The notes under the pieces: model-generated
What the model was told of the DNA's origin: nothing
The model's input: only the letters and a program-made list of their open reading frames with translations
Databases searched by the model: none
Translations under genes and position numbers: made by a program
From: a virus
Taxonomy: Duplodnaviria; Heunggongvirae; Uroviricota; Caudoviricetes
IMG/VR virus record: IMGVR_UViG_2596583652_000001
Coordinates: 64,001-114,107 of that record
DNA: 50,107 nucleotides
Strand: one strand, 5' to 3'
In this document: positions 342-45,465 of the stretch, piece by piece
Position numbering within the stretch: the stretch's first letter is position 1
How the letters are laid out: every line of letters starts with the position of its first letter

Positions 342-359
342 TATGTGAGCACTTACTTA
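342..359. promoter_or_regulatory. 18-bp operator copy upstream of phoH
   Basis: TATGTGAGCACTTACTTA matches the repeated TAAGTRWG-NN-CNNACWTA palindrome. Confidence 0.65.
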
Positions 360-416
360 CTTTTCCCGTTTCGGCTACATTGCGGGATCAGTTATCTCCC
401 TGGGGAGCCTCCCGAA

Positions 417-1307
417 ATGACCAAGTTCAGCAAGTCAGCCGCGCGCACCAACCGTCGCGAGGAACGCTCCCGTTCGCGTAACGACACCCCGCTGCTCCTC
501 GAGGCGATGAGCCGCGAGATTCCCGCCAAGCCAAGGGTGCGCGAGATCAAGCCGCTCACCGATGGCCAGAAGCGCTATGACGCCGCCATGCGCTCAGCCG
601 ACATCGTGTTCGGCATTGGACCGGCCGGCACCGGCAAGACCTGGCTGGCCGCCATGCGCGCCGCCGAACGGCTCGACAATCGGGAGATCGAGCGCATCAT
701 CGTTACGCGGCCGGCCGTCGAGGCTGGTGAGAGCCTGGGCTTCCTGCCCGGTGAGCTTGACGAGAAATACGAGCCCTATTTCCGGCCGGTCAGCGAAGCC
801 CTGGTGCAGTTCTTCGGCGCCTCGCATCTCGAGCTCCTGATCAAGAGCAAGAAGATCGAGGCGCGCCCGCTGGCGCTGCTGCGCGGCGCCTCCATCGATA
901 ACGCGGTCGTCATCGCCGACGAGATGCAGAACGCGACGCTGACCCAGTTCAAGCTGCTGCTCACCCGCGGCGGCAAGGGCACGAAGTTCATCATCAACGG
1001 CGACCCGCGCCAGACCGATCTTCCGGGTGGCCGCTCGGGACTGACCGAGGCACAGAAGATCCTCGGCAAGGTGAAGGGCGTAGAGGTCGTCACCTTCGAT
1101 CGTTCCGACATCGTGCGCTCCGGTCTTACGCAGCGCGTCGTGGAAGCCTTCGAGGATGCGCATGTGACAAGCGGCGCGAATCCGGCGGAAGGACGCGACG
1201 CCGCATCGATCTCACTCGCCTACCACTTTAGCGAGTTCGGGCTGGGTCACCTTCTCGAGGAAGTCCCGCGCCTGCCGCGCGCGGAGGTCGTCAGGTTCGG
1301 CTCCTAG
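417..1307 (+). CDS. phoH: PhoH-like ATPase
   Basis: FGIGPAGTGKT Walker A, RPAVEAGESLGFLPG, ADEMQN, GDPRQTDL motifs; ATG at 417 after GGGGAG chosen over ORF start 162. Confidence 0.93.
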   Translation: MTKFSKSAARTNRREERSRSRNDTPLLLEAMSREIPAKPRVREIKPLTDGQKRYDAAMRSADIVFGIGPAGTGKTWLAAMRAAERLDNREIERIIVTRPAVEAGESLGFLPGELDEKYEPYFRPVSEALVQFFGASHLELLIKSKKIEARPLALLRGASIDNAVVIADEMQNATLTQFKLLLTRGGKGTKFIINGDPRQTDLPGGRSGLTEAQKILGKVKGVEVVTFDRSDIVRSGLTQRVVEAFEDAHVTSGANPAEGRDAASISLAYHFSEFGLGHLLEEVPRLPRAEVVRFGS

Positions 1308-1322
1308 GGCTGTCGCGTCAAA

Positions 1323-1359
1323 TTCCAGAGCGCGAGCGCTATAAGTGACAGAGCGCTTA
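1323..1359 (+). promoter_or_regulatory. Phage-type promoter overlapped by operator
   Basis: TTCCA-N11-CTATAA (1323-1344); operator TAAGTGACAGAGCGCTTA 1342-1359. Confidence 0.65.
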
Positions 1360-1372
1360 TGAGAGTGATCTG

Positions 1373-2098
1373 ATGCCCTTGAATGACCAGGCCCCGATCG
1401 GCGAGATGGACCGCAGCTTGCCGATCGACGACGACTATGTGACCTACACGCTGAACCTCGGCAAGTTCCAGGACTTTGACCTCGGCCTGTTCGCCACCAA
1501 ATGGTTCGACTACCGGCATCTGACGCCTTTGCAGGCCACGCGCCTCTATACCGCCGCTCTGGAGCCCGTCTATCAGCGGATCTATGCCCGCGAGTTCGAT
1601 CGGGAGAAGGCCAAATACATCAAGGTGGCCGACCTCGATAAGCTGCTCGAGGGCCTGCGCCGCGGTGACTCCCACGCCAAGGCGACCTTCACCGCCTGCT
1701 GGCGCGGCCGACAGGTCGCCGACGCGCTCGGTATGCCCTACGAGATCTATCTCGACCTGATCGTGAGCGCCCGGCTCCGGCGCTGGCAGCGCACGCAGAT
1801 GCCGCGCCCGCAGCACCTCTACCACGAGTATGACGTCGAGAAGGTGCAGCTGCGCTGGGAGGAGATGCAGGCAAGCGACCTCTATCTCGCCGAGCACCCG
1901 GCCTACATGGTCCAGAACTACCAGGGTGCCCTGCACCAGAACGACTACCACGAGTGGCTGATCAAGCAGGCCAGGCTGCGCCAGAACACCGCCTATTACA
2001 TCGCCCGCTTCATCGATGAGGACCGGCTTCCTCTCGACAAGGTCAGCTCGCGGCTCGAGCCTCACCTGTTCGAGCAGGTCACAAGCTACCTGCAGTAA
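1373..2098 (+). CDS. Conserved phage-plasmid hypothetical protein preceding the helicase (possible helicase loader or replication accessory)
   Basis: 241 aa, TKWFDYR motif; position upstream of dnaB-primase recalled from SSU5-like elements; function not established. Confidence 0.6.
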   Translation: MPLNDQAPIGEMDRSLPIDDDYVTYTLNLGKFQDFDLGLFATKWFDYRHLTPLQATRLYTAALEPVYQRIYAREFDREKAKYIKVADLDKLLEGLRRGDSHAKATFTACWRGRQVADALGMPYEIYLDLIVSARLRRWQRTQMPRPQHLYHEYDVEKVQLRWEEMQASDLYLAEHPAYMVQNYQGALHQNDYHEWLIKQARLRQNTAYYIARFIDEDRLPLDKVSSRLEPHLFEQVTSYLQ

Positions 2099-2167
2099 CC
2101 CATCAGCGTTTCGCTACAATTGAGACAGTGTATTGCACGTCTCGCCTTGTAAGTGAGTGCATACTTA
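2098..2167 (+). promoter_or_regulatory. Promoter and operator of the dnaB-primase operon
   Basis: ACCCA-N11-CTACAA (2098-2119); operator TAAGTGAGTGCATACTTA 2150-2167 abutting the AAGGAG RBS. Confidence 0.7.
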
Positions 2168-2180
2168 AGGAGTTGAGCTA

Positions 2181-3506
2181 GTGAGTGACGCTGAGGCTTC
2201 GGCTCAATACGATTTCGACGTTCAGTTCCAGCACAAGATCGCCTCGCTGCTGATGCGTGACAGCGTGTTTGCGATGCGCACCAAGGATCTGATCAAGCCG
2301 GAATACTTCGCCGAGGCAGCCGTCGGCACGATGGTCGGCATCGTCCAGGAGCACATCAAGGTTTACAAGACCGTGCCGGACATGAAGATCCTGCCCACGA
2401 TCCTGAAGGATGCCCTCGCGCGCAAGCGCATCCGGCCCGACATGCTCGACGGCATCAAGGCCATCATCCGCGAGGCGATGACCGCGGATCTCTCGAATCC
2501 GGATTTCGTGACCGACAAGGTCGCGAGCTTCGCCAAGCACCAGGCGATCGAGCAGGCCATCATGGCCTCGCTCCCGCTGCTGGAGAAGGGCGAGTTCGAC
2601 AAGATCGCCCAGCTGATGAAGGAAGCCGGCCAGGTCGGCGCCGTTCTCGATGGCGGCGATTACGACTACTGGCAGGAGATTGGCAACCGCACCCAGCTGC
2701 GCAAGGACCTGGCCGCCGGCAAGGTGGTGCGCAACGGGATCACGACCGGCTATTCCGAGATCGATGGTCTGCTGTTTCACGCGGGCTGGGGTCGCAAGGA
2801 ACTCAGCTGCATGATGGGGCCGGCCAAGGCCGGCAAGTCGATGTCGCTGGGCGACTTCGGCAAGAATGCCGCGCTCGCCGGCTACAATGTGCTCTACGAC
2901 AGCCTCGAGGTCGCCAAGGAGATCATCGCCGACCGCACCGACGCGGCGCTGACCAGCACGCTGATGCGCGAGCTTCACAAGTCGGCCGATGATGTCGATC
3001 GGCTTGTCCGCGCCGCTGCGACGCGCGCAGGCCATATGAAATTCCGCGATCACGCCTCCGGCACGCTCAAACCCTCGACGCTGCACCGGCTGATCGAGGA
3101 TTATCGCTCGGACGGCATCATCTTCGACCTGGTGATTGTCGACTATGCCGACATCATGGCTGCGGAGTATCGCTCCGACAGCCTCCAGGAGAACCTGCGC
3201 ACCATCTACATCGACCTGCGCGCGATCGCCCACGAGTTCAACATCGCGCTGCTGACAGCGACCCAGACCAACCGTGACGGCGCCAAGGCGGTTACGGCCA
3301 AGGCGACCGACGTCGGTGATGACTGGAACAAGGCGCGCACCGTCGACATCATGATCGGCATCAGCGCTACCGACGCGGAGAAGACCGCCGGCGAGGCGCG
3401 CCTGTCCTGGCTCCTGTCGCGCAACACCGAGGACGGCTTCTCGATCAAGATCCGGCAGGACCGCTCCAAGATGCAGTTTCTCACCAAGGTGCTGGGGCGC
3501 ATCTGA
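2181..3506 (+). CDS. dnaB: DnaB-like replicative helicase
   Basis: GPAKAGKS Walker A, LYDSLE, VIVDYADIM Walker B, TATQTNR; GTG start after AAGGAG. Confidence 0.9.
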   Translation: MSDAEASAQYDFDVQFQHKIASLLMRDSVFAMRTKDLIKPEYFAEAAVGTMVGIVQEHIKVYKTVPDMKILPTILKDALARKRIRPDMLDGIKAIIREAMTADLSNPDFVTDKVASFAKHQAIEQAIMASLPLLEKGEFDKIAQLMKEAGQVGAVLDGGDYDYWQEIGNRTQLRKDLAAGKVVRNGITTGYSEIDGLLFHAGWGRKELSCMMGPAKAGKSMSLGDFGKNAALAGYNVLYDSLEVAKEIIADRTDAALTSTLMRELHKSADDVDRLVRAAATRAGHMKFRDHASGTLKPSTLHRLIEDYRSDGIIFDLVIVDYADIMAAEYRSDSLQENLRTIYIDLRAIAHEFNIALLTATQTNRDGAKAVTAKATDVGDDWNKARTVDIMIGISATDAEKTAGEARLSWLLSRNTEDGFSIKIRQDRSKMQFLTKVLGRI

Positions 3507-4624
3507 TGGCCAGCAGTCTGTGGGATGAGATCGAGGCGAACCTCGATATGGAGTTCTTTCTCGATCGCGAGAGCCTCGCCTACCGGATCACGCGCGGCGT
3601 GTCGGGCGAGCAGCTCAACATCAAGCAGTGCCCCAATCCGAACTGCGGTGACTCCCGCTGGCGCGTCTATTTCGGGACCGACACCGGCCGGGGCAACTGC
3701 TTCGTCTGCGGCAAGGGGTTCGGGAAGACGAGCTTCATCCGCGCCCATTTCGAGCACACGGACTGGGCGGCCACGGCGCGCGAGTGCGAGGCGCTGTTAA
3801 AGGAGCAGGGCTGGCGACCGCGGCGAAAGGCCGTGGTGGCGGTCGAGCATGGCGATGTCGTGCTGCCGATCTCCATCGAGCTTCCCACGCCCGAGGGGTC
3901 GAACCTCGCCTATCTCGAGACACGCGGCATCGACGCCGAGATCTGCCGCTATTTTCGCCTGCGCTTTTGCGAATATGGATGGTGGAAGTTCACGGATCCG
4001 GATGGCGCCGTGAAAACGCAGTCCTTCGACCAGCGCGTGATCATTCCGGTCTTCGACCTCGACGGCAAACTGGTGACGTTCCAGGGCCGCGACGTAACCG
4101 GTATGAGCCAGTCCAAATACCTGTTCCCGAAGGAGCTGCCCGGCACGGGCCGCTATCTCTACAACGCCCACAACGTGGTCGCGACCGACCATGTGGTGAT
4201 GGGGGAGGGCGCTTTCGACGTGGCCGCCCTCAAGATCGCCTTCGATGAAGATCCGGCGCTGCGCGACATCGTGCCAATCGGCTCCTTCGGCAAGCACCTG
4301 TCCTATGGCGACCCCGGCGCCAATGATCAGCTGGGGCGGTTCAACGCGCTCAAGGCGCGCGGGCTGAGATTCGTGACGATCATGTGGGACGGAGAGGAGA
4401 GGGCGCTCGAGGCCGCGCTGAACGCTGCCAAGCTGCTCTCCGGCATCGGCCTGACCGTGCGCATCGCGCTGCTGCCTCATGAGCGCGATCCCAATGAGGT
4501 GCTCCCCGAGGTCGTGCGCAAGGCGCACTACGCGGCGAGCACCTGGACGCCGGCGCTCGATATCCGGTGGAGGCTGCGCAACCCCTACTCGCCGCGTGAG
4601 CGCGTGCGCCTGGGACTATGTTAG
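3506..4624 (+). CDS. dnaG: DNA primase (zinc-binding plus TOPRIM)
   Basis: N-terminal CPNPNC...CFVC zinc site, FQGR, GEGAFD and WDG TOPRIM motifs; TGATG-coupled to the helicase. Confidence 0.9.
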   Translation: MASSLWDEIEANLDMEFFLDRESLAYRITRGVSGEQLNIKQCPNPNCGDSRWRVYFGTDTGRGNCFVCGKGFGKTSFIRAHFEHTDWAATARECEALLKEQGWRPRRKAVVAVEHGDVVLPISIELPTPEGSNLAYLETRGIDAEICRYFRLRFCEYGWWKFTDPDGAVKTQSFDQRVIIPVFDLDGKLVTFQGRDVTGMSQSKYLFPKELPGTGRYLYNAHNVVATDHVVMGEGAFDVAALKIAFDEDPALRDIVPIGSFGKHLSYGDPGANDQLGRFNALKARGLRFVTIMWDGEERALEAALNAAKLLSGIGLTVRIALLPHERDPNEVLPEVVRKAHYAASTWTPALDIRWRLRNPYSPRERVRLGLC

Positions 4625-4669
4625 CGCTCACATCTTTCCTCGCTCATTCCACTGAGCGTCGCGCTATAA
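4617..4669 (+). promoter_or_regulatory. Operator and promoter of the WGR/ligase operon
   Basis: Operator TATGTTAGCGCTCACATC 4617-4634; TTCCA-N12-CTATAA 4647-4669. Confidence 0.6.
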
Positions 4670-4690
4670 ATCAAGCAACAGAAATGCTCG

Positions 4691-5832: not shown

Positions 5833-7359
5833 ATGGACGCCTATACCGTATCGCGCCGGATCGAGGAGATTGCGGCGACCGGCTCGCGCATCGAGAAGGA
5901 ACGTCTCCTGAGCGAGCTCGCGGCCTCGGATCTCGGCAAGTTCGTGCTCAACTGGGCCTACAACCCGTTCATCACCTACGGCCTCACCGCTGCTCCCACG
6001 CCCAGCGACGAGGAGCTCAATATCAACTTCCGCCGGGAGCTGATCGAGCCGCTGCTGCTCAAGCTCTCCCGGCGTGAACTGACAGGCAAGGCGGCCGAGC
6101 GCGAGGTTGGCGAGGTGATGCGCGCGCTCAATCCCGACGGCGCCCGCCTGCTCTATCTCGTCCTGTCCAAGGATCTGAAGTGCGGCATCGCCGAGACCAC
6201 GATCAACGCGGTGATGCCCGGCCTCATTCCGATCTTCTCGGTGATGCGTGCGCACACCTTTGACGTCAAGAAGGTCAAGTCCTGGCCGCAGAAGCTCGAA
6301 TACAAGCTCGACGGCAACCGCAACACATTCATCGCCAAGGACGGCCACGGCGGTTTCTTCACCCGCACCGGCAAACGGGTGCTCTCGCTCGACTTCCTGG
6401 TGCAGGGTGTCCTCCGGGCCGCCCAGGTCGCTCTCGAAACCACGACGATGAAGGAGCTCCAGCGCACCCTGTCGCAGGACAATGGCCGCACCCTCAACTT
6501 CATGCTCGATGGCGAGGCGATGATGGGCCTGTTCGCCAACACGGGCGTCTTCAAGCGCACGACCGAGGACGCGGTCGGCGCCGAGCTGCACCTCTACGAC
6601 ATCATGTCGCTTCCTGACTTCGACGCGATCGGTTCGGTCGGCTACCCGCTCGAGCAGCGCCGCAAGATGCTGGTCGAGTTCGTGCGCCAGGCCAAGGCGG
6701 GCCTGCCCGAGAACCTCAAGGAGATGATCCAGATCTCGCCGCAGTTCTTCGTGAACAACGAGGCAGAGGTGCATGAATGGTTCGAGAAGGCGCGCGCCAA
6801 GACGCTCGCCTCCTACCTGGCGCGCGGCGATGCGCAGAAGGAAGCCGAGCTCGCGGCTGCGACCATCGACAAGGAAACCGGCAAGCCCAAGGTGCTCGAG
6901 GGCATCATGGTCAAGGATCCGGGCGGGCTCTACGACAAGAAGAAGTCCTATGGCTGGATGAAGATGAAGGCCGAGGAGACCGAAGATCTGCGGATCGTCG
7001 GCTTCTATAACGGCGAGGCCGGCAGCAAATACGAGTTCACGATGGGCGGCGCCATCGTCGAGCGCAATGGCGTGCTCATCCGCGTCGGAGGAGGGTGGTC
7101 CGACAAGGATCGTGCCGACTGTTGGGAGCTCTGGAAGCAGGATGCGGCGCTGCTCGGCATCGATCCGCTGGTTGGCTTCAAGCCGGGTGTCCACTTTGAG
7201 CTGGGGCGCATCAAGGCGGTAGAGGCCACGAACTTCCTCGGCCGGCTGCTCGAGGTCGAGTTCCACGAGGTGACACCCGACGGCTCGCTACGCCATCCCC
7301 GCGCGGTTCGTTTCCGCGACGACAAGGACGGCGAGCTCGAAACCCGTGAGGCAGCATGA
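5833..7359 (+). CDS. ATP-dependent DNA ligase
   Basis: EYKLDGNR (KxDG adenylation), LDGEAM, YDIM, EGIMVKD, KKSYGWMKMK, EVTPDGSLRHPR. Confidence 0.93.
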   Translation: MDAYTVSRRIEEIAATGSRIEKERLLSELAASDLGKFVLNWAYNPFITYGLTAAPTPSDEELNINFRRELIEPLLLKLSRRELTGKAAEREVGEVMRALNPDGARLLYLVLSKDLKCGIAETTINAVMPGLIPIFSVMRAHTFDVKKVKSWPQKLEYKLDGNRNTFIAKDGHGGFFTRTGKRVLSLDFLVQGVLRAAQVALETTTMKELQRTLSQDNGRTLNFMLDGEAMMGLFANTGVFKRTTEDAVGAELHLYDIMSLPDFDAIGSVGYPLEQRRKMLVEFVRQAKAGLPENLKEMIQISPQFFVNNEAEVHEWFEKARAKTLASYLARGDAQKEAELAAATIDKETGKPKVLEGIMVKDPGGLYDKKKSYGWMKMKAEETEDLRIVGFYNGEAGSKYEFTMGGAIVERNGVLIRVGGGWSDKDRADCWELWKQDAALLGIDPLVGFKPGVHFELGRIKAVEATNFLGRLLEVEFHEVTPDGSLRHPRAVRFRDDKDGELETREAA

Positions 7360-9713: not shown

Positions 9714-9731
9714 TATGTGTGCATTGACTTA
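9714..9731. promoter_or_regulatory. Operator between divergent RHH/repC and repressor genes
   Basis: TATGTGTGCATTGACTTA, overlapping a TTGACT -35-like hexamer. Confidence 0.65.
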
Positions 9732-9851: not shown

Positions 9852-10307
9852 ATGAAGCGTTCCGGGAAGTCCGACACCTTGGCGGCCAAGCGCCTTAGCT
9901 TGCGCGATTTCGTAATCCAGCGGGTTGACGAGCTCAAGCCGCGGAAGAGCCAGAAGGACATCGCGGCCGAGGCGGGCTATCCCAGCCAGAACATGATCTC
10001 CCAGCTGAAGCTGGGCACCAGCAAATTGGCGATCGATCGCGTGCCCCTGCTCGCCAAGGCTCTCGACGTCGATCCCGCCTATCTGCTTCGCCTGGCTTTT
10101 GGGCAGTATTATACCGGGGAGACGATCGAGTTCCTCGACCAGGTCTACACCGGCCAGACCACAGATAACGAGCGCGAGATCCTGAACTTCATCCGAGAGG
10201 TTTCGGGCGATCGCGACCCCAAGCTGAACGAGGGCTCAAAGGCGCTGCTGCGCGAAGCGTTCGGTGTTGCCTCCGCCGATGAAGACACAACCGCCCAGAG
10301 CGCCTGA
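9852..10307 (+). CDS. XRE-family HTH transcriptional regulator (candidate phage repressor)
   Basis: SQKDIAAEAGYPSQNMISQLKLGTSKLAIDRVPLLAKALDV Cro/CI-type HTH; flanked by operator copies. Confidence 0.8.
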   Translation: MKRSGKSDTLAAKRLSLRDFVIQRVDELKPRKSQKDIAAEAGYPSQNMISQLKLGTSKLAIDRVPLLAKALDVDPAYLLRLAFGQYYTGETIEFLDQVYTGQTTDNEREILNFIREVSGDRDPKLNEGSKALLREAFGVASADEDTTAQSA

Positions 10308-10387: not shown

Positions 10388-10405
10388 TAAGTGACTAATC
10401 ACTTA
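10388..10405. promoter_or_regulatory. Operator with perfect 7-bp palindromic arms
   Basis: TAAGTGA-CTAA-TCACTTA. Confidence 0.75.
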
Positions 10406-10429: not shown

Positions 10430-10699
10430 ATGGCAGTGACGGAAGCGATTCCTACCGAAGCAATGATGGATCCTGCTGAGGCATACGAGTTGGCGTCGAC
10501 GCTCGTTCGCCAGGATCGGGTCGAGCTCGAAGGTGTTGATGTGATCAGTGGTTATCATCGGGAATGGGGTTTTGTGACCATCGTCATTCCTTCCTTTGGT
10601 CGGTCCCTCGTCGTCAAGCCTCTCGCAGGACACGATGCTTTCGATCACCGGGAGACATCTAGCCTTTTGCAGTCCAATATGCTCTCGCGTATTGATTGA
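10430..10699 (+). CDS. Small hypothetical protein
   Basis: 89 aa, AT-richer codons, directly downstream of the operator. Confidence 0.5.
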   Translation: MAVTEAIPTEAMMDPAEAYELASTLVRQDRVELEGVDVISGYHREWGFVTIVIPSFGRSLVVKPLAGHDAFDHRETSSLLQSNMLSRID

Positions 10700-13178: not shown

Positions 13179-13196
13179 TAAGTATGTAGATACATG
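13179..13196. promoter_or_regulatory. Operator upstream of the cobS-like gene
   Basis: TAAGTATGTAGATACATG right after GCTAAAA. Confidence 0.6.
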
Positions 13197-13238: not shown

Positions 13239-14501
13239 ATGAGTGAAGCAGCGACCCTCGACGCCGCGCCGAGCGCGGCCGTCGTCCCTGCCGCCGTCAA
13301 TGACGGCAAGATCACCTGCCACATCGACAACGCCCGCGTGCATTCGATCCAGCGGCATATCGGCGATCACTATGCCGCCGAGTGGACGATCGAGCGCTAC
13401 AAGCAGGAATTCCCGGGCGAGCCGCTGCTCTCGCCGGTGGCCGAGCGGCTTCTCCAGGAGCGGGCTCAGGAGCGCGCCAAGCAGCAGGCGAGCGAGCAGG
13501 TTCCCCGTCAGCCGGCATCTCCCGCGGCGATTGCCGGCCTGGTGACCGCGGCGACCGCGCTCACGCCCAAGACGGTGATGCTCAACGAGGCGTTCGGCCT
13601 CGGCAATGCGTCAGCGGCCATGAATGGCGAAGGCCGGCCAATCCCGATCACGACGTTCACGGGGCATGACCGCGCGTCGCTCGACTATCTGCCGGATCTC
13701 GATGCGGACTTTGTGTTCAACATCGACCTGCTCAAGAAGGTCATCATCGGCTTCGAGCTGAACATTCCGACCTATCTCTGGGGCTTTCACGGCACCGGCA
13801 AGACGACGGTGCTCGAGCAGGCGTCGGCGCGCACCGGCCGGCCGTTCATCCGCGTCCAGCACACGATCAACATGCAGGAGTCCGAGGTGCTCGGGCAGTG
13901 GACCGTCAAGGACGGCGCCACGCACTTCCAGCTCGGCCCGCTGCCGATGGCGATGATCAATGGCTGGGTCTACTGCGCCGACGAATACGACTTCGCCATG
14001 CCGGCCGTGACCGCGCTCTATCAGCCGGTGCTCGAGGGCAAGGCGCTGCTCATCAAGGACGCGCCCCCGATGTTCCGGCGCATCGAGCCGCATCCGAACT
14101 TCCGCTTCGTCGGCACCGGCAACACCAACGGCATCGGCGACGAAACCGGCCTCTACCAGGGCACGCTCGTCATGAACGCCGCCAACTTCTCGCGCTTCGG
14201 CATCACCGAGGAGGTCACCTACAACGAAGCGAAGGTCGAGGAGAGCATCCTCATCAGCCGCACCAAGATCGACCGGGCGACCGCCTCGAAGATCGTCAAG
14301 TTCGCCAATGACGTGCGCAAGCTGTTCCGCGACGGCAAGATCTCCATGACGGTCTCGCCGCGTGAGCTGATCCGCGCCGCGCAGCTGGGCATCGCCTATG
14401 GCGCCAAGTGGCAGATCGGGCTCGAGCTCGCTTTCGCCAATCGTCTGTCCCGTGTCGACAAGAAGGCGGTGATGGAATTCGCGCAGCGGATCTTCGGCTG
14501 A
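13239..14501 (+). CDS. cobS: CobS/MoxR-like AAA+ ATPase
   Basis: LWGFHGTGKTT Walker A, YCADEYDFA Walker B, HPNFRFVGTGNT, SPRELI sensor; ATG 13239 after GGAG. Confidence 0.88.
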   Translation: MSEAATLDAAPSAAVVPAAVNDGKITCHIDNARVHSIQRHIGDHYAAEWTIERYKQEFPGEPLLSPVAERLLQERAQERAKQQASEQVPRQPASPAAIAGLVTAATALTPKTVMLNEAFGLGNASAAMNGEGRPIPITTFTGHDRASLDYLPDLDADFVFNIDLLKKVIIGFELNIPTYLWGFHGTGKTTVLEQASARTGRPFIRVQHTINMQESEVLGQWTVKDGATHFQLGPLPMAMINGWVYCADEYDFAMPAVTALYQPVLEGKALLIKDAPPMFRRIEPHPNFRFVGTGNTNGIGDETGLYQGTLVMNAANFSRFGITEEVTYNEAKVEESILISRTKIDRATASKIVKFANDVRKLFRDGKISMTVSPRELIRAAQLGIAYGAKWQIGLELAFANRLSRVDKKAVMEFAQRIFG

Positions 14502-15133
14502 TGCAGCGCCGGTTCAATCCCGCCGACAGCGCGAAGCAGATCAAGGCGTTCGCGGCTCGTGTGCATCGCCGGCTCAAGGCGGCCGGCGCTGCGTCCCACG
14601 CGGTCGAGGACGTCGAGCAGGAGCTGTGGTGCATCTGGTGCAAGGCGTGCGACGCCTATGACCCGACCCAGGGTGCGTCGTTCAAGACGTTCCTGCACAA
14701 GGGCATGCAGCTCTACATCAACCGCTATGTCGAGAAGCATGTCAGTCGGCGCCATGCCGAGGTGGTCGCTCTGTCGATCGATTACTCCTATGGCGACGAG
14801 GACGACAATGCGACGCTCGGCGACGCTGTCAGCGCCGGCGACAAGTCGGCGGAGGATGAGCTGGCCGAGACCGACCTGTTCGGCAAGGTCATCGATCGGC
14901 TCTCCGCGCGCGCCCGCCTGTTCGTGACGCTGCTGCACGAGGAGCCGGCCGAGCTCGTCAATGAGGTGAAGCACCTCGAGCAGAAGGGCGATTACGCCAG
15001 GTCGCGCGGCCTGCCCTTCAAACAGTCCCTGCGCGTGACCAGTCGCATGGTGTTCGAGCTCATGGCGGCCGACCACGCCGAGCGCCGGGCCATTCTGGAA
15101 GAGATCAATCATGTCACCCGAAAGCTCGCCTGA
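14501..15133 (+). CDS. Phage-encoded sigma70-family-like factor
   Basis: VEDVEQELWCIWCKACDAYDPTQGASFKTFLHKGM resembles sigma region 2; LSIDYSYGDEDDNATLGDAV and IDRLSARARLFVTL resemble region 3 to 4.1; TGATG-coupled to cobS. Confidence 0.65.
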   Translation: MQRRFNPADSAKQIKAFAARVHRRLKAAGAASHAVEDVEQELWCIWCKACDAYDPTQGASFKTFLHKGMQLYINRYVEKHVSRRHAEVVALSIDYSYGDEDDNATLGDAVSAGDKSAEDELAETDLFGKVIDRLSARARLFVTLLHEEPAELVNEVKHLEQKGDYARSRGLPFKQSLRVTSRMVFELMAADHAERRAILEEINHVTRKLA

Positions 15134-19922: not shown

Positions 19923-19965
19923 ATCTCTGTTTCGCTGCGCTATAATGTAAGTGACTGCATACATA
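19923..19965 (+). promoter_or_regulatory. Promoter plus operator
   Basis: ATCTC-N12-CTATAATG then TAAGTGACTGCATACATA (19948-19965). Confidence 0.65.
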
Positions 19966-22499: not shown

Positions 22500-22517
22500 T
22501 GAGTGAGCAATCACTCA
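22500..22517. promoter_or_regulatory. Operator upstream of recA
   Basis: TGAGTGA-GCAA-TCACTCA, perfect 7-bp arms. Confidence 0.7.
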
Positions 22518-25405: not shown

Positions 25406-25448
25406 ATCCAAATGCGCACGCGCTATAACGTAAGTGAGTGCATACATA
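25406..25448 (+). promoter_or_regulatory. Promoter plus operator of the sbcDC operon
   Basis: ATCCA-N12-CTATAACG then TAAGTGAGTGCATACATA (25431-25448). Confidence 0.72.
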
Positions 25449-30412: not shown

Positions 30413-30455
30413 TTCCCTAGCTGCATCTGCTATAATGTAAGTATGCACTAACTTT
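30413..30455 (+). promoter_or_regulatory. Promoter plus operator
   Basis: TTCCC-N12-CTATAATG then TAAGTATGCACTAACTTT (30438-30455). Confidence 0.65.
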
Positions 30456-30482: not shown

Positions 30483-30962
30483 ATGGCACGCGCCAAAACC
30501 GTCATCGACCCCGCCCTTAAGGCGCTCACCGAAGAGGTCGGCGCCGAACTCGTCCAGCTCGGCGGCGACATCTTCTCCGAGATCGAGCCCGCCGAGCCGA
30601 TGACGGTTAAGTATCCCGACGGCGTCTACAAGAAGAAGCCGATCCTGCCCGGGCTCGAGTTCGCCCTGCGCTCTGTCTATGTCGGCGCCAGCGGCAAGAC
30701 CATTTTCTGCTTCGAGCCCGAGGACGCCCAGGAATGGTCCCTGCTTGAGGTTCCGGCCGGCGAAGTCGATCACCGCTTCCCGCTATTCGGCTCGGTCGTG
30801 GCGAAGTTGTTCAACATCGCCACTGACGAGGAGGACTTCACCAATGTGTGGAAGCTCATCCTGTCCTCCGCCGCCGAGCGCAAGCAGAAGGCCCAGGAGG
30901 AGGCGCGCCAGGCCGAGAACCAGACCTATCGCGACAACCCGACCTTCGGCCGCTTCGGCTGA
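30483..30962 (+). CDS. Hypothetical protein with NPTFGRF tail
   Basis: About 159 aa; C-terminus QTYRDNPTFGRFG. Confidence 0.6.
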   Translation: MARAKTVIDPALKALTEEVGAELVQLGGDIFSEIEPAEPMTVKYPDGVYKKKPILPGLEFALRSVYVGASGKTIFCFEPEDAQEWSLLEVPAGEVDHRFPLFGSVVAKLFNIATDEEDFTNVWKLILSSAAERKQKAQEEARQAENQTYRDNPTFGRFG

Positions 30963-31587: not shown

Positions 31588-31605
31588 TCAGTATGTAATC
31601 ACATA
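31588..31605. promoter_or_regulatory. Operator upstream of nrdB
   Basis: TCAGTATGTAATCACATA (overlaps AGTATGT-AATC-ACATACT palindrome). Confidence 0.6.
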
Positions 31606-35337: not shown

Positions 35338-35380
35338 ACCCAAACTCGCACGCGCTATAACGTAAGTAAGCACATACATT
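35338..35380 (+). promoter_or_regulatory. Promoter plus operator of the thyX/dut operon
   Basis: ACCCA-N12-CTATAACG then TAAGTAAGCACATACATT (35363-35380). Confidence 0.7.
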
Positions 35381-35396: not shown

Positions 35397-35915
35397 ATGA
35401 GCGACGAGACCGCCCAGAGCGACTTCGAGACCATGATGGCCATGCCAGGCACGTTCGTCTTCGGCGAGAACCAGGTCGCCATGCTGGCGGCCGTCGTGGC
35501 GAACATGGGCGCGATCGCTTTTGCCCATCGGGCGAAAGCCGAGACCTTCCGCGATGCGAGCACCGGCGAGCTGGACCGCGACGCGCTGTTCATGGACGCC
35601 GACACGGTGCGCCTCCTGCTGCCGAGCTCGGACGACGCGATCGGCCTGATCGGCGTCATTCATCACGTCATGACCAAGCTGGGCGAAAGCCACGGCTTCG
35701 ATCCGGAGCAGGTGATGCTGTCGCTTCCGACCGTCACCGGCGCCAAGCACGCCGCGCGTGTGACCGAGCTGCTGAACCACAACAACAGCCAGCTGCAGGA
35801 GAACCGCAATCAGCGGGCGGTGATCCGCGATCTTCTCAAGGCGCTCCAGGACGGAAACACCAACGACACTCTGGAAGAAGCGATGGCGCGCGCGAAGGAG
35901 CTCATCGGTGCGTAG
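35397..35915 (+). CDS. Hypothetical protein
   Basis: 172 aa, phage codon usage. Confidence 0.6.
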   Translation: MSDETAQSDFETMMAMPGTFVFGENQVAMLAAVVANMGAIAFAHRAKAETFRDASTGELDRDALFMDADTVRLLLPSSDDAIGLIGVIHHVMTKLGESHGFDPEQVMLSLPTVTGAKHAARVTELLNHNNSQLQENRNQRAVIRDLLKALQDGNTNDTLEEAMARAKELIGA

Positions 35916-38311: not shown

Positions 38312-38312
38312 C

Positions 38313-39176: not shown

Positions 39177-39224
39177 TCCCAAAGCAGATAGCGCTATAAA
39201 AGAAATGCAGTGAGCGCATACTTA
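39177..39224 (+). promoter_or_regulatory. Promoter plus operator
   Basis: TCCCA-N12-CTATAA; operator GCAGTGAGCGCATACTTA 39207-39224. Confidence 0.62.
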
Positions 39225-39277: not shown

Positions 39278-39721
39278 ATGGACACCAATGCGAATGGCGC
39301 CGACGTGCGCAAGCCGATGACGATCGCCGAACTGGAGGCCGAACACGAGGCGGGCGCAAAAGCTCATGCCGAGCGGGTGGAAGCGCACAAGCGCCGTGAA
39401 ATGCTCGAGCAGATCGTGGAGCTGAAAACGCAGTTCGCCGGCCGGCGCGAGAAGCTCAAGGACGAGCGGAAGGCGATGAAGACGAAGGCTGGCCACCTCA
39501 AGGCGGCGCTCGACTTCCTCGCGAGCGTCGAGAATGACGAGCTGACGACCGACCAGCTTCGGGAAGTGCGCAAGATCGCCTCGAACCTGGCGGCGGGTCA
39601 CGAGAATGGCGTGGCGCCGGGCGAGATCGATGCCCGGCCGATGTCCTTGGCTGAATTCTCGGGGCTTACGATCAACCTCGGCAAGATCCTCCCCGGCGAG
39701 CTCCGCTTCGCCCACCGCTGA
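39278..39721 (+). CDS. Coiled-coil hypothetical protein
   Basis: 147 aa, RBS GGAGA. Confidence 0.6.
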   Translation: MDTNANGADVRKPMTIAELEAEHEAGAKAHAERVEAHKRREMLEQIVELKTQFAGRREKLKDERKAMKTKAGHLKAALDFLASVENDELTTDQLREVRKIASNLAAGHENGVAPGEIDARPMSLAEFSGLTINLGKILPGELRFAHR

Positions 39722-40657: not shown

Positions 40658-40697
40658 GGGTGCGTGCGGGGAAGAGTATCGCGTCCCGCACGCACCC
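40658..40697. repeat. Perfect 13-bp inverted repeat
   Basis: GGGTGCGTGCGGG-N14-CCCGCACGCACCC. Confidence 0.8.
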
Positions 40698-40743
40698 AAT
40701 CCCATCAAAAGATCCAGCATCGAAATCGAAGCGACCTGACGCA

Positions 40744-40781
40744 TCCCAACGTGCGCAGCGCTATAAGTATGTCATCACTTA
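40744..40781 (+). promoter_or_regulatory. Promoter plus operator of rIIA-rIIB
   Basis: TCCCA-N12-CTATAA; operator TAAGTATGTCATCACTTA 40764-40781. Confidence 0.7.
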
Positions 40782-40802
40782 TTCAGCGCTCGCGACAAGC
40801 GT

Positions 40803-43229: not shown

Positions 43230-43230
43230 T

Positions 43231-44460
43231 ATGTCCACCATCATTCATGTGGCTGGCGCCCTCGTCAGCACCAACGGCGTCACGCTGTTCAAGGCCGACG
43301 GCACCTCCTCCGTCTATTCGAGCGACGCCTATGAGACGGCGCGGGTGCTGGAGAAGGTGATGATGCCGCTGGCCCGCGGCGAGATCCCGGTTACGATCGA
43401 CATGGCCGAGTTTTCGCTCCAGGCGGCGCTGACGGCCGCGATCCCGAACGCCATCATTGAGACGCAAGCGGACGGCACCGAGGCGCTGGTCGTCGGCACG
43501 GGCGAGAACAAGATCGAGGTGGCTAATCCCAAGCGCCTCGAGAAGCAGATGGAGCATGCGCTCCACGGGAAGAACGCCAAGGGGTTCAAGCGCTTCCTGA
43601 AGGAGTTCGCCAAGCTCAACCATGCGCACACGGTCGACGAGCTGCTGGGTTTCATGGAGACCGGCGATCTGCCGATCTGCAACGACGGCTCGATCCTGGT
43701 CTACAAGTTCCTGGACCGGCGCGAGGACGGCGAATTCTTTGTCGACAAGCACACTGGCAAGGTGAAGCAGAGGCTCGGCTCGCGCGTGTCGATGCCCTCG
43801 AGCCGCGTTAGCACCAACCGGCGCGAAGCCTGCGGCAGCGGCCTGCACGTCTGCTCGCACCGCTATGGCAGCTACGGCAACACCCTCTTCCTGGCCAAGG
43901 TCTCGCCGGCGGATGTGATCACCGTGCCGAAAGGCGAGAATTCCAAGATGCGTGTGTGCGCCTATCACCTGGTCGCGCAGCTGCCCGACGAGCTCTACCG
44001 GGTGGTCGCCAATCGCCAGTCGCTCATGACGAACGAGGAAGGCCGCAAGCTCGTCGAGCGGATCATCAATGGCGATCACACGCCGGTCCTCGAGGACGTC
44101 AAGGTCGGCGGCAGCACCTACGAGAACAAGGACACGAAGATCGCGACGCGCAAGCTGCCCAAGCCCAAGAAGCTCGTGAAGACCAAGGGCGTGAAGGTGA
44201 GCGTGTCGGAAGCGGCCTCGGCGAAGTCGAAGATCACGCCCACAACGGTGCGTGCCCAGCTCGCCACTGCTGCGATGACTGGCGACTATTCCGCCGCGAT
44301 CAACGCCCCGGCGCCGAGTCCCGCGGCCGCCGGTGGTGCCTACGAGGCCAAGCTCGCCAAAGCGCAGGATCTCTACAACGCCGGCAAGTCGATCCGCGAG
44401 ATCTCCAAGGAGCTCTCCATGTGCCGCAAGAGCCTCTCGCGCAATCTCCGCACGAAGTGA
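43231..44460 (+). CDS. rIIB: RIIB-like protein with C-terminal HTH
   Basis: ELLGFMETGDLPICNDGSILVYK, VSMP, CGSGLHVC, KVSPADV, KMRVCAY; GKSIREISKEL HTH. Confidence 0.82.
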   Translation: MSTIIHVAGALVSTNGVTLFKADGTSSVYSSDAYETARVLEKVMMPLARGEIPVTIDMAEFSLQAALTAAIPNAIIETQADGTEALVVGTGENKIEVANPKRLEKQMEHALHGKNAKGFKRFLKEFAKLNHAHTVDELLGFMETGDLPICNDGSILVYKFLDRREDGEFFVDKHTGKVKQRLGSRVSMPSSRVSTNRREACGSGLHVCSHRYGSYGNTLFLAKVSPADVITVPKGENSKMRVCAYHLVAQLPDELYRVVANRQSLMTNEEGRKLVERIINGDHTPVLEDVKVGGSTYENKDTKIATRKLPKPKKLVKTKGVKVSVSEAASAKSKITPTTVRAQLATAAMTGDYSAAINAPAPSPAAAGGAYEAKLAKAQDLYNAGKSIREISKELSMCRKSLSRNLRTK

Positions 44461-44477
44461 GCCGAGGAGGCCAGCCC

Positions 44478-44627
44478 ATGCGCCGCGTCATTCAGCACGC
44501 CGGTTCCCTCCTCTGCGCCCTGCTGACGATCGGCATCGTCGTCGCGGGTCTCTCCATTCTCGAAGCGATGCGCCGCGCCCCCATCGACTGCAGCGCCAGC
44601 TTCTCGACCAAGGAAATCTGCAAGTGA
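44478..44627 (+). CDS. Small membrane protein
   Basis: MRRVIQHAGSLLCALLTIGIVVAGLSIL...IDC...C; RBS GAGGAGG. Confidence 0.55.
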   Translation: MRRVIQHAGSLLCALLTIGIVVAGLSILEAMRRAPIDCSASFSTKEICK

Positions 44628-45445
44628 CCACCCAGAACATCGTAAACGACCAGGGCGAGCTCGTCGGAGAGCGTCGCATCGACCCCATCTATGGCGCCGT
44701 GCTCTCCGAGGAGCCGATCGCCGTCGGGCGCAGCACCGCCCTCACGGCCCTCGAGCGTGACGAACGCTATCGCAACACCGAGGCTCCCATCACCTACAGC
44801 TACGAGGTGTTCCAGAAGCCGCCCCGCGCCGGCCGCTACATGCACACCTCGAACGGGAAGAAATACTACCCGCTCGATCCCCGTGCCGAGGAAGTGCATA
44901 TCGAGGTCGTCGCCCATCACCTGGCGACCCGCGCGCGCTACAACGGCGCGACCCAGCATCCCGAGTTCGAGGACCGGATCTTCTATTCCGTCGCCGAGCA
45001 CTCGGTCCTCGTCTCCCACTACATCGAGTCAGTGCTCGGAAAGCCGGAGTTCGCCCTCGAAGGGCTGCTGCACGACGGCTCGGAAGCCTATAATGGCGAC
45101 CTGATCCGGCCGCTGAAATACGACCCGGCCTTCCGCGCGCCGTTCCAGCATGTCGAGGCGCTGAACGAGATCGCCGGCGCCCAGCGGTTCAATCTGCTCT
45201 ACCCCTACCCGGACGTGGTGAAGATCGCCGACGAGGCCGTCACTGCCGCCGAGGTCGAGCAGATCATCGTGACGGACCCGGCCGAGGACTGGTCCGGCAA
45301 GCTGCATGACGACAGCCGCGTCGCGCCGTTCCGGATCGACATGCTGCTGCCCTTCGCCGCCAAGCAGCTGTTCCTGCGGCGCTATGAGCAGATCATGAAG
45401 ACCCGGCATCTTTACCGCGCAGTCCCAAGCGCGCTCGCGCTATAA
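44624..45445 (+). CDS. HD-domain 5'-deoxynucleotidase-like hydrolase
   Basis: FYSVAEHSVLV, GLLHDGSEAYNGDLIRPLK, KIADE; GTGA-coupled start. Confidence 0.85.
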   Translation: MTTQNIVNDQGELVGERRIDPIYGAVLSEEPIAVGRSTALTALERDERYRNTEAPITYSYEVFQKPPRAGRYMHTSNGKKYYPLDPRAEEVHIEVVAHHLATRARYNGATQHPEFEDRIFYSVAEHSVLVSHYIESVLGKPEFALEGLLHDGSEAYNGDLIRPLKYDPAFRAPFQHVEALNEIAGAQRFNLLYPYPDVVKIADEAVTAAEVEQIIVTDPAEDWSGKLHDDSRVAPFRIDMLLPFAAKQLFLRRYEQIMKTRHLYRAVPSALAL

Positions 45446-45465
45446 TGTAAGTATGCGCTAACATC
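45423..45465 (+). promoter_or_regulatory. Promoter plus operator
   Basis: TCCCA-N12-CTATAATG then TAAGTATGCGCTAACATC (45448-45465). Confidence 0.68.

What the first reader, a model, noticed from the sequence alone, without database searches (positions are those of the whole stretch)
342..45465. Genome-wide regulon: 16 copies of an 18-bp palindromic operator at operon starts
Seen: the 18-mer T(A/G/C)(A/T)GT(G/A/T)(A/T)(G/C)-N2-NNNAC(T/A)T(A) recurs only in intergenic or gene-boundary positions at 342, 1342, 2150, 4617, 9714, 10388, 13179, 19948, 22500, 25431, 30438, 31588, 35363, 39207, 40764 and 45448. Two copies have perfect 7-bp arms (TAAGTGA-N4-TCACTTA, TGAGTGA-N4-TCACTCA). Five sit in the identical context GCTATAA(T/C)G-TAAGT, covering the transcription start. 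Known: dimeric HTH repressors bind such palindromes, and P1 C1 silences many scattered operators. Inference: one repressor, most likely the XRE protein at 9852-10307 (operators at 9714 and 10388 flank it), shuts off the whole lytic replication programme during plasmid-state lysogeny.
Basis: partly seen in the sequence, partly recalled or inferred. Interest (0 to 1): 0.85.

Follow-up and report, generated by a model that had tools for sequence, protein, structure and literature searches.

The report
Dispersed repressor operators of a phage-plasmid
An 18-base palindrome sits in front of nearly every operon of a 114-kb plasmid-like phage and is most likely the docking site through which one phage-encoded repressor keeps the virus silent; the principle is known from phages P1, L5 and phiC31, but this regulon appears undescribed.

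Summary
The window is the last 50 kb of a separate 114-kb contig with overlapping ends, an SSU5/RHEph10-type phage-plasmid. The palindrome TAWGTRWGY.RCWYACWTA occurs at 15 strong sites in the window; site 1342 is only a half-site. There are 35-36 sites on the replicon, all between genes, against about 0.02 expected and about five weak loci in the 4.39-Mb chromosome.

The two halves match one half-site independently and do not co-vary as a hairpin, so this is a DNA site for a dimer. Sites lie 2 bp after a CTATAA -10 box or fill a -35/-10 spacer, which are repressor positions. Thirteen relatives carry 10-54 copies of lineage-specific versions with the same geometry.

The XRE protein at 9852-10307 is the only XRE-type HTH found on the replicon. 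It has a P22 c2/434-like fold and is kept beside the cobT operon whatever the replicon type. One recognition-region residue tracks operator base 6, but through only one or two evolutionary changes. Binding and repression remain inferred.

This scan had already found the regulon, on the neighbouring window of this genome and on many SSU5-type plasmids. I found no published description.

The parts
342..359 (.). operator TATGTGAGCACTTACTTA, 57 bp upstream of the PhoH-like gene (417-1307)
   Evidence: 27-28 bits; 0 mismatches to the consensus; syntenic site in V1VFA-S at 65381; PhoH by Pfam
1342..1359 (.). weak site: a left half-site only, fused to a CTATAA box, upstream of the 241-aa conserved gene 1373-2098
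   Evidence: 12.4 bits and lost from the refined matrix; CTATAA at 1339; no syntenic site in V1VFA-S
2150..2167 (.). operator TAAGTGAGTGCATACTTA, 13 bp upstream of the DnaB-like helicase gene (2181-3506)
   Evidence: 29 bits; 0 mismatches; DnaB_C by Pfam
4617..4634 (.). operator at the end of the primase gene, about 29 bp upstream of a CTATAA box (4664) that precedes the WGR-domain gene
   Evidence: 19-20 bits; CTATAA map; same arrangement in V1VFA-S at 69603
9714..9731 (.). operator between the leftward RHH-repC genes and the rightward XRE gene; its right half ATTGACTTA holds a -35-like TTGACT that is conserved in relatives
   Evidence: 20 bits; sequence context; same right half next to XRE in V1VFA-S, pLM21S1, Shinella, L064, L065 and L067
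9797..9802 (+). CTATAT -10-like box of the XRE gene's own promoter (CCCCAC-N10-CTATAT), with no operator after it
   Evidence: promoter function inferred
9852..10307 (+). XRE-family HTH protein of 151 aa, the candidate repressor (P0001)
   Evidence: Pfam HTH_3 E=4.8e-5; only HTH_3 hit on C18; AF2 pLDDT 89; N-domain matches P22 c2 and 434 at 1.6-1.8 A rmsd; homologues in 303 plasmid records
10350..10375 (+). terminator-like GC hairpin and T-run directly after the XRE gene
   Evidence: read (GCCCG-loop-CGGGC followed by TTTTTAT); inferred, not tool-scored
10388..10405 (.). operator TAAGTGACTAATCACTTA (perfect 7-bp arms), 24 bp upstream of a small ORF and the cobT-like operon
   Evidence: 24-25 bits; syntenic site in V1VFA-S at 75808
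10430..10699 (+). conserved-position small ORF (89 aa) of no known family, the first gene after the XRE gene's terminator
   Evidence: no Pfam or PHROG hit; a 66-84-aa ORF sits at this place in relatives
13179..13196 (.). operator 42 bp upstream of the operon holding the CobS/MoxR-like ATPase, the sigma-like factor and DNA polymerase III alpha
   Evidence: 21-22 bits; Sigma70_r2 by Pfam; synteny with V1VFA-S
19948..19965 (.). operator 2 bp after a CTATAA box (19940), upstream of a small ORF and the gp32-like ssDNA-binding protein gene
   Evidence: 24-25 bits; gap of 2 bp; gp32 by Pfam
22500..22517 (.). operator TGAGTGAGCAATCACTCA (perfect 7-bp arms), 25 bp upstream of the RecA-like gene
   Evidence: 16-18 bits; RecA-like by synteny with V1VFA-S
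25431..25448 (.). operator 2 bp after a CTATAA box (25423), upstream of a small ORF and the SbcD-like phosphoesterase gene
   Evidence: 26-28 bits; gap of 2 bp
30438..30455 (.). operator 2 bp after a CTATAA box (30430), 27 bp upstream of gene 30483-30962
   Evidence: 23-24 bits; gap of 2 bp
31588..31605 (.). operator upstream of the ribonucleotide reductase genes
   Evidence: 22 bits; RNR by synteny with V1VFA-S
35363..35380 (.). operator 2 bp after a CTATAA box (35355), 16 bp upstream of gene 35397-35915
   Evidence: 24-25 bits; gap of 2 bp
39207..39224 (.). operator 7 bp after a CTATAA box (39194), upstream of gene 39278-39721
   Evidence: 19-21 bits; gap of 7 bp
40764..40781 (.). operator overlapping a CTATAA box (40761) by 3 bp, upstream of the 805-aa gene
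   Evidence: 23 bits
45448..45465 (.). operator 2 bp after a CTATAA box (45440), 10 bp upstream of gene 45476-45697
   Evidence: 21-22 bits; gap of 2 bp

Best explanation
The 18-bp palindrome is the operator of one phage-plasmid-encoded dimeric helix-turn-helix repressor. Each half-site (TAWGTRWGY) is read by one subunit. The sites either begin 2 bp after a CTATAA -10 box, so they cover the transcription start, or fill the spacer between a TTGnnn -35 and a -10. A bound dimer would therefore exclude RNA polymerase. About 36 such sites head nearly every replication, recombination, nucleotide-metabolism, packaging and tail operon, so one protein can silence the whole virus while it replicates as a plasmid. 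The most likely binder is the 151-aa XRE protein at 9852-10307, which has its own promoter and terminator and no operator over its -10 box. Shown: the sites, their enrichment, their intergenic placement, their independence from hairpin pairing, their conservation and fixed geometry in relatives, and the fold and conservation of XRE. Inferred: that XRE is the binder, that binding represses, and that this maintains plasmid-state lysogeny.
For: Enrichment and placement. No pairing covariation between halves: 201 of 315 pairs observed against 211 +/- 6 when halves are re-paired at random. Most sites do not fold as RNA, at 0 to -2 kcal/mol, and there is no Rfam hit. Geometry: gaps of 2 bp after CTATAW (5 sites in C18, 6 in V1VFA-S, 8 in pLM21S1) and 1 bp after TTGnnn (3-5 sites per genome) recur across lineages although the operator sequence differs. 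Four of the six strict sigma-70-like hits in C18 20-60 kb coincide with operators. CTATAA promoters also exist without the site (4664, 9797, 19335, 24527, 47334), so the site is a separable module. Relatives: 22-54 sites per replicon with lineage-specific half-sites. XRE: the only HTH_3 on C18, with no HTH_31, HTH_17 or S24 peptidase there. Its N-domain has the P22 c2/434 fold, and the whole protein resembles the two-domain repressors Stl and DdrO. It is kept beside the cobT operon next to RepC, RPA, Rep3 or IncFIB RepA replicons. In pHCM2, pMT1 and E. coli it is divergent from the cobT operon, with the site right after its own TAATAT box. Residue 45 is N where operator base 6 is A (8 lineages, C fraction 0-0.30) and K, R or Q where it is C (5 lineages, 0.68-0.96). 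Five of these loci were chosen by the residue before their DNA was read, four N and one K. C18 has Q51 where 90% of the family has M, and its operator is unusual at positions 6-8.
Against: There are no binding, expression or induction data. On the XRE tree the residue-45 versus base-6 pattern needs only two changes, and one origin is not excluded, so it may be shared ancestry. Ruegeria plasmid homologues have an almost identical recognition helix but no TAAGT-type site; they carry a different palindrome. XRE is not a clear divergence outlier between lineages with different operators (ranks 13/73 and 27/74). The strict promoter scan finds no more sigma-70-like sites than chance, and the AT-rich operator itself contributes to the hexamers. 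Sites 4617 and 9714 lie upstream of the nearest -10 box, not over it. The half-sites are asymmetric: the GAG form occurs 13 times in the upstream half and twice in the downstream half, which a simple homodimer does not explain. V1VFA-S and RHEph10 were isolated as plaque-forming phages, and their lysogeny is only presumed.
Confidence: 0.6

Rival explanations
1. The sites are repressor operators, but the binder is another conserved protein of the element. Candidates are one of the two ParB_N-domain proteins (C18 29415-30143 and 30140-30814, acting like KorB of plasmid RK2) or a ribbon-helix-helix protein.
For: Both ParB_N proteins are conserved in all nine relatives compared, E. coli and Aeromonas included. 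They have about 130 C-terminal residues with no assigned domain, and an operator lies 17 bp upstream of the first one. KorB-type ParB proteins bind dispersed palindromes (established knowledge). Two RHH proteins are encoded on the replicon.
Against: The ParB_N proteins fall in PHROG families of phage 'ParB-like partition protein/nuclease' with no detected HTH. They stay more conserved than the median gene between lineages with different operators (ranks 43-54 of about 73), which is not expected of a specificity determinant. The RHH next to repC is absent from the IncFIB RepA elements that keep the motif.
Confidence: 0.14
2. The palindrome binds an activator or a dual temporal regulator of the lytic cycle rather than a lysogeny repressor. 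It could, for example, turn off +1-type promoters and turn on spacer-type promoters.
For: The two placements are largely split between gene classes: after CTATAA at replication genes and in the -35/-10 spacer at structural genes. Related phages form plaques and have not been shown to lysogenise. Some sites lie upstream of a -10 box (4617, 9714).
Against: Both common placements overlap the RNA polymerase footprint, which is typical of repression. The spacers are 16-18 bp, not the overlong spacers used by MerR-type activators (established knowledge). The candidate protein has a Cro/CI-type fold. The same site heads early and late operons alike.
Confidence: 0.13
3. The motif is part of the promoter itself, recognised by RNA polymerase carrying the phage sigma-like factor (14501-15133).
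For: A sigma-70 region-2 protein is encoded in an operator-controlled operon. Five sites share an identical CTATAA context.
Against: The palindrome occurs at different offsets from -10 and -35 boxes, and CTATAA boxes occur without it. Its twofold symmetry is not a property of sigma recognition. E. coli, pHCM2 and pMT1 relatives keep the motif, yet no sigma homologue was found in the E. coli element.
Confidence: 0.05
4. The motif acts in RNA, as a 5'-UTR hairpin for processing, attenuation or translational control.
For: Many sites lie 10-30 nt upstream of start codons and would be partly transcribed. The perfect copy at 10388 folds at -5 kcal/mol.
Against: There is no pairing covariation. Most copies do not fold. 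There is no Rfam family. Sites occur in divergent intergenic regions and upstream of promoters.
Confidence: 0.02

Closest known systems
Phage-plasmid P1: C1 repressor and its many dispersed operators (established knowledge)
   Same: This is also a plasmid prophage in which one repressor acts at many operators scattered round the genome, in front of separate operons.
   Different: P1 operators are asymmetric 17-bp sites and C1 is not an XRE/Cro-type protein. P1 late genes are controlled indirectly through Lpa, whereas here palindromic sites sit directly at structural operons too. There is no sequence relationship.
Streptomyces phage phiC31: conserved inverted repeat (CIR) operators bound by the c repressor
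   Same: Many near-identical palindromic operators of about 17 bp lie in intergenic regions ahead of early genes, one of them at the repressor gene.
   Different: The repressor family and the host are different, and phiC31 integrates. Here there are roughly twice as many sites, and late operons are included.
Mycobacteriophage L5 / Cluster A gp71 repressor with operators and 'stoperators' (established knowledge; PMC6550527 listed, not read)
   Same: There are 20-35 repressor sites across the whole genome, with lineage-specific site variants that define immunity groups.
   Different: Stoperators are 13-14 bp, asymmetric and orientation-dependent, and they can act within transcribed DNA. The sites here are symmetric and sit on core promoters.
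RK2/RP4 global regulators KorA and KorB (established knowledge)
   Same: Palindromic operators are repeated at many promoters of one replicon at a few fixed offsets. KorB belongs to the ParB family, and two ParB_N proteins are encoded here.
   Different: RK2 is a conjugative plasmid, not a phage. It has 12 KorB sites and 7 KorA sites. No HTH was detected in the ParB_N proteins here.
P22 c2 and 434 repressor/Cro DNA-binding domains (PDB 3jxb, 2r1j, 2cro)
   Same: The N-terminal domain of the candidate repressor superposes at 1.6-1.8 A rmsd (TM 0.78-0.82 by target). P22 c2 also reads an 18-bp palindromic operator (structure title, plus established knowledge).
   Different: Sequence identity is 24-28% over about 65 residues only. 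The C-terminal domain is different and all-helical, with no S24 autocleavage domain. There are about 36 operators rather than 6.

Membership tests
XRE / Cro-CI type HTH repressor | HTH_3-type helix-turn-helix domain | tested here: met
   Pfam PF01381 E=4.8e-5, 23.7 bits against a cut-off of 23; genome scan 25 bits; PHROG 'transcriptional regulator/repressor' families
XRE / Cro-CI type HTH repressor | Five-helix 434/P22 c2-like fold of the DNA-binding domain | tested here: met
   AF2 model pLDDT 89. Foldseek: 3jxb TM 0.81 and rmsd 1.6 A; 2cro TM 0.78. E-values are only 0.009-0.015 because the match covers one domain
XRE / Cro-CI type HTH repressor | Homodimer that binds a twofold-symmetric operator | not testable with these tools
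LexA/CI-type SOS-cleavable repressor | C-terminal S24 peptidase domain | tested here: not met
   PF00717 has no match on C18. The C-terminal half of XRE is all-helical. If it is the repressor, induction must use another route
Dispersed-operator prophage regulon (P1 C1, phiC31 CIR, L5 type) | Many copies of one site over the whole replicon, far above chance and nearly absent from the host chromosome | tested here: met
   35-36 sites
Dispersed-operator prophage regulon (P1 C1, phiC31 CIR, L5 type) | Sites overlap promoters at operon heads | tested here: inconclusive
   Fixed offsets from CTATAW and TTGnnn boxes are conserved across lineages. The promoters are predicted only, and the strict scan is not above chance overall
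Dispersed-operator prophage regulon (P1 C1, phiC31 CIR, L5 type) | A site at the repressor gene itself (autoregulation) | tested here: met
   9714 and 10388 flank the gene. In pHCM2, pMT1 and E. coli a site directly follows the gene's TAATAT box
Dispersed-operator prophage regulon (P1 C1, phiC31 CIR, L5 type) | Repressor shown to bind the sites and to keep the prophage silent | not testable with these tools
SSU5 / RHEph10-type phage-plasmid | Synteny of the head-tail, helicase-ParB_N, DnaB-primase-ligase and cobT-cobS-PolIII-alpha-exonuclease-RecA blocks, plus a plasmid replicon | tested here: met
   RepC by Pfam. ParA plus an RHH partner. 95-bp terminal overlap of the contig

The most novel reading that the evidence does not exclude
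The supergroup carries a set of operator 'dialects': TAAGTAAG, TAAGTRWG, TMAGTCAG, TMARTCAAT and TCAGTAAR. Each is matched by changes in the recognition region of the one XRE repressor (residue 45 N for A, K/R/Q for C at base 6; Q51 in this element). On this reading the 35-55 sites per genome and the repressor have co-evolved as immunity specificities. Phage-plasmids from Rhizobium to Yersinia pMT1 would then fall into heteroimmune groups, and the family would supply a natural series of orthogonal repressor-operator pairs.
Probability: 0.35. Interest if true: 0.6.

Novelty: new member of a known kind. Interest (0 to 1): 0.5.

Why it matters
SSU5/RHEph10-type phage-plasmids are among the commonest phage-plasmids. 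They include Salmonella Typhi pHCM2, Yersinia pestis pMT1 and many enterobacterial and rhizobial elements, yet I found nothing published on how they stay silent as plasmids. A single palindromic operator at almost every operon, with a candidate repressor beside the cobT operon, gives a concrete and testable switch. It predicts which promoters are silenced and which genes escape: repC, parA and the repressor gene itself. It also predicts how immunity groups could differ between lineages.

Tried and rejected
No RNA holder is listed for this DNA, so nothing can be said about expression.

A protein search of 400 genomes of the same class found homologues in only four. None of those sits in a phage-plasmid or has the family's palindrome.

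Stand-alone XRE homologues on ordinary plasmids gave a mixed picture. Gemmobacter and Lichenihabitans have a TAAGTAA half-site next to the gene. Cereibacter has none. Ruegeria has a different palindrome, ATGCAG-N6-CTGCAT, after a CTATAT box.

I asked whether XRE is a divergence outlier between lineages with different operators. The effect is slight.

The residue-45 versus base-6 covariation separates the lineages completely but rests on only one or two changes on the tree.

The sequence search of solved structures gave only spurious designed-repeat hits.

My first shuffle control was invalid because it preserved the sites. Both were replaced by the Markov null.

The strict sigma-70 scan does not exceed chance in number of hits.

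Two papers were read and set aside: a 49-kb phage-plasmid study and a 42-kb Roseobacter phage-plasmid with a C1-type repressor. Both concern unrelated elements.

Full report
WHAT THE WINDOW IS. The window is G000:C18:64001-114107, the last 50 kb of a separate 114,107-bp contig. That contig has 63.4% G+C, against about 67-69% for the large chromosomal contigs. Its two ends overlap by an exact 95 bp, as expected of a circle or a terminally redundant genome. It is weakly similar in DNA, and syntenic in proteins, to the Rhizobium siphophages V1VFA-S, B1VFA and RHEph10. It also resembles plasmids of about 115 kb from Rhizobium, Shinella, Sinorhizobium (pLM21S1) and Methylobacterium, and more distantly the enterobacterial SSU5-type plasmids. 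The window encodes PhoH, a DnaB-like helicase, primase, ligase and RepC (minus strand, behind a small RHH gene). It also encodes an XRE-type protein, CobT- and CobS-like proteins, a sigma-70 region-2 protein, Pol III alpha, a gp32-like protein, an exonuclease, a RecA-like protein, SbcCD-like proteins and ribonucleotide reductase. The other half of the contig holds ParA with an RHH partner, a helicase, two ParB_N proteins and the packaging, head and tail genes. The authors of V1VFA-S and B1VFA describe them only as 'possible prophage-plasmids' (PMC12509600).

THE OBSERVATION. Their alignment is a true 9+9 palindrome, TAWGTRWGY.RCWYACWTA, with about 18 bits of information. With up to three mismatches the consensus hits 15 loci in the window, against 0.17 expected from shuffles. 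Site 1342 is only a half-site fused to a CTATAA box, and I do not count it.

A position matrix finds 35-36 distinct sites on the whole contig. Thirty-four lie in the 16.5 kb that my crude gene caller leaves intergenic, where a first-order Markov null gives 0.02. Two fall in 'coding' DNA, both in doubtful ORFs. The remaining 4.39 Mb of the genome holds only a handful of weak matches.

DNA SITE OR RNA HAIRPIN. If the palindrome served as a hairpin, the two arms of each copy should co-vary. They do not. Across 35 sites, 201 of 315 positions pair, which is no more than the 211 +/- 6 obtained when left and right halves are re-paired at random. Each half independently matches a half-site that comes in two forms, TAAGT-GAG and TAAGT-ATG. 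As RNA most copies do not fold, at 0 to -2 kcal/mol; only the perfect copy at 10388 reaches -5. Rfam finds nothing in the window. Some sites lie in divergent intergenic regions or upstream of promoter boxes. This is the signature of a twofold-symmetric protein reading DNA. One feature remains unexplained: the GAG form is almost confined to the upstream half, 13 against 2.

POSITION RELATIVE TO PROMOTERS. Two placements recur. In the window, five sites begin exactly 2 bp after a CTATAA box, and three more lie 7 bp after one or overlap it by 3 bp. These boxes are preceded by CCCAA at about 11 bp. In the structural half of the contig the site begins 0-2 bp after a TTGnnn hexamer, and its last two bases start a TAttat-like hexamer, so it fills a 16-18-bp spacer. 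The strict sigma-70 scanner finds only six hits in C18 20-60 kb, which is no more than chance. Four of those six coincide with operators, although the AT-rich site itself contributes to the hexamers.

CTATAA or CTATAT boxes also occur without the palindrome, at 4664, 9797 (the XRE gene's own), 19335, 24527 and 47334. The palindrome is therefore a module separable from the promoter. The same two offsets recur in relatives whose operator sequence differs: 2 bp after CTATAW, or 4 bp in pAMS5a, and 1 bp after TTGnnn. Sites that cover the start point or the spacer are, by established knowledge, repressor positions. The spacers are not the overlong ones used by MerR-type activators.

RELATIVES. Every relative examined has its own version, found de novo by counting X5-Nn-rc(X5) words.
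- V1VFA-S and pLM21S1 have TAAGTAAK..MTTACTTA at 39-40 sites, at syntenic places.
- Shinella has a similar motif.
- Methylobacterium pAMS5a has TMAGTCAG..CTGACTKA, 54 sites in all, with 40 exact AGTCA-N4-TGACT words. A Methylobacterium oryzae plasmid has TAAGTCA-N4-TGACTTA.
- RHEph10 and a Pararhizobium plasmid have TMARTCAAT.ATTGAYTKA.
- Aeromonas and Raoultella plasmids have TCAGTAAR..YTTACTGA.
- E. coli pYLPI6a, S. Typhi pHCM2 and Y. pestis pMT1 have a looser TARGTAAGT..., at about ten sites per 36-40 kb.
T1, A3 and T5 are constant, and positions 2, 4 and 6-9 change between lineages. The system is therefore old, and its specificity has drifted.

WHICH PROTEIN. The XRE protein at 9852-10307 (P0001) is the only HTH_3 match on the contig. 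HTH_31, HTH_17 and S24 peptidase have no match there. With 100 homologues the AlphaFold2 model reaches pLDDT 89 and is all-helical. Its first 65 or so residues superpose on the P22 c2 and 434 repressor/Cro DNA-binding domains at 1.6-1.8 A rmsd. The full length resembles the two-domain repressors Stl and DdrO.

Homologues occur in 303 plasmid records, mostly of the SSU5 supergroup, and in all ten rhizobiophage records of this type. An exhaustive search finds 1,041 representative proteins. Wherever a long contig is available the gene sits in the same place: replicon gene, XRE, a small ORF of 66-84 aa, then cobT, cobS, sigma and Pol III alpha. This holds whether the replicon is RepC, RPA, Rep3 or IncFIB RepA. 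XRE therefore belongs to the phage backbone, not to the plasmid module.

In this window the gene has its own CTATAT box with no operator behind it, a terminator-like hairpin after it, and operators on both sides. In pHCM2, pMT1 and E. coli it is divergent from the cobT operon, and an operator follows its TAATAT box directly, which is the classic autoregulated layout.

A COVARIATION TEST. In the recognition region, residue 45 is N in lineages whose half-site has A at position 6. It is K, R or Q where position 6 is C, and S in this element, where position 6 is G or A. In the wider family, residue 45 is N in 25, K in 25, S in 19 and R in 17 of 100 sequences. I picked five N and five K/R representatives before reading their DNA. 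With one family-level detector that leaves position 6 free, five of these ten loci, four N and one K, gave enough half-sites to score. Combined with the relatives read earlier, the eight N lineages have a C fraction of 0-0.30 at position 6. The five K/R/Q lineages have 0.68-0.96. The separation is complete (Mann-Whitney one-sided p = 0.002, ignoring kinship).

The pattern is chemically sensible: Asn with adenine, and Lys, Arg or Gln with the guanine opposite C. However, on the XRE tree the C-type lineages form nearly one weakly supported group. The pattern needs only two changes, and one origin is not ruled out. It is therefore suggestive, not independent proof. This element's protein also has Q at position 51, where 90% of the family has M. 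By analogy with 434 repressor that is a base-contacting position of the recognition helix. Its operator is the odd one out at positions 6-8.

Against the assignment, two Ruegeria plasmid homologues have almost the same helix as pLM21S1 but no TAAGT-type site.

RIVAL BINDERS. The two ParB_N proteins are conserved in all relatives, and KorB of RK2 shows that ParB-family proteins can be global repressors. Here, however, no HTH is detected, and they belong to phage 'ParB-like partition/nuclease' PHROGs. They also stay better conserved than the median gene between lineages with different operators, whereas XRE is slightly below the median. The RHH next to repC is missing from the IncFIB elements that keep the motif. 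An activator or dual temporal regulator cannot be excluded without expression data.

KNOWN OR NEW. The principle is known from P1 (C1), from phiC31 (CIR operators) and from mycobacteriophage L5 and its cluster (stoperators). RK2 KorA and KorB do the same on a plasmid. In the papers I could search I found no description of this motif or of the lysogeny control of SSU5/RHEph10-type elements. Within this scan it is not new: the neighbouring window of this genome and many SSU5-type plasmids have been reported with the same reading. I file it as a new member of a known kind.
- the proof against a hairpin role;
- the fixed promoter geometry across lineages;
- the catalogue of operator dialects;
- the residue-45 versus base-6 correspondence, with its phylogenetic caveat.

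VERDICT. My estimates are about 0.85 that this is a protein operator, about 0.7 that it represses, and about 0.55-0.6 that XRE is the binder.

Noticed in passing
window 1339, 4664, 9797, 19335, 19940, 24527, 25423, 30430, 35355, 39194, 40761, 45440, 47334: A promoter-like family, (T)CCCAA-N11-(G)CTATAA/T, has no TTGACA-type -35 at 17 bp. It occurs both with and without the palindrome. The same CCCAAT-N10-CGCTATAT layout precedes XRE homologues on Ruegeria plasmids, where no phage sigma gene was annotated in the 12-kb stretches read, so it may be a host promoter type rather than one read by the phage sigma.
   Followed up: partly
C18-wide, e.g. window 2150, 25431; C18 35715, 38479: The half-sites are asymmetric. 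The TAAGT-GAG form is almost confined to the half that lies upstream with respect to transcription (13 against 2), and TAAGT-ATG dominates the downstream half (19). Relatives such as V1VFA-S are symmetric. This is unexplained.
   Followed up: partly
window 9714-9731 and the equivalent sites in V1VFA-S, pLM21S1, Shinella, L064, L065, L067: The operator upstream of the XRE gene keeps a right half (A/G)TTGACTTA, which contains a -35-like TTGACT, even in lineages whose other operators differ. It may mark a conserved promoter that the site controls.
   Followed up: no
window 10430-10699: A small ORF (89 aa here, 66-84 aa in relatives) with no Pfam or PHROG family always follows the XRE gene and heads the cobT operon, directly behind an operator. 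It is a candidate Cro-like or antirepressor partner of the switch.
   Followed up: partly
L007+L008 (E. coli pYLPI6a), e.g. 25485, 41843, 67247: A second and more abundant palindrome, AAACAA-N-TTGTTT, has 13 exact AACAA-N1-TTGTT copies in front of genes in the E. coli SSU5-type plasmid, beside the weaker GTAAG-YA-CTTAC family. It is nearly absent from the pHCM2 and pMT1 stretches read (3 and 1 copies).
   Followed up: partly
G000 C8:590461, C8:630057, C17:129634, C17:131499: These are the few chromosomal matches to the operator matrix (15.5-21 bits). The two on C17, 1.9 kb apart, share ACTAAGT..CACTTAA and may belong to another element.
   Followed up: no
C18 ends (window 50013-50107 and C18 1-95): The contig ends have an exact 95-bp terminal overlap, consistent with a circular replicon or terminal redundancy.
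   Followed up: yes
L053, L064-L067, L071 (metagenomic relatives): The XRE, small ORF, cobT, cobS, sigma and Pol III alpha block is joined to different replication initiators (RepC, RPA, Rep3; IncFIB RepA in enterics). This shows replicon swapping next to a fixed regulatory module.
   Followed up: partly
L009 about 5960-5985 and L010 about 5930-5955 (Ruegeria plasmids): Stand-alone XRE homologues (44-46% identical) have an 18-bp palindrome, ATGCAG-N6-CTGCAT, a few bases after their CTATAT box. This looks like an autoregulated gene with a different operator despite a very similar recognition helix.
   Followed up: partly
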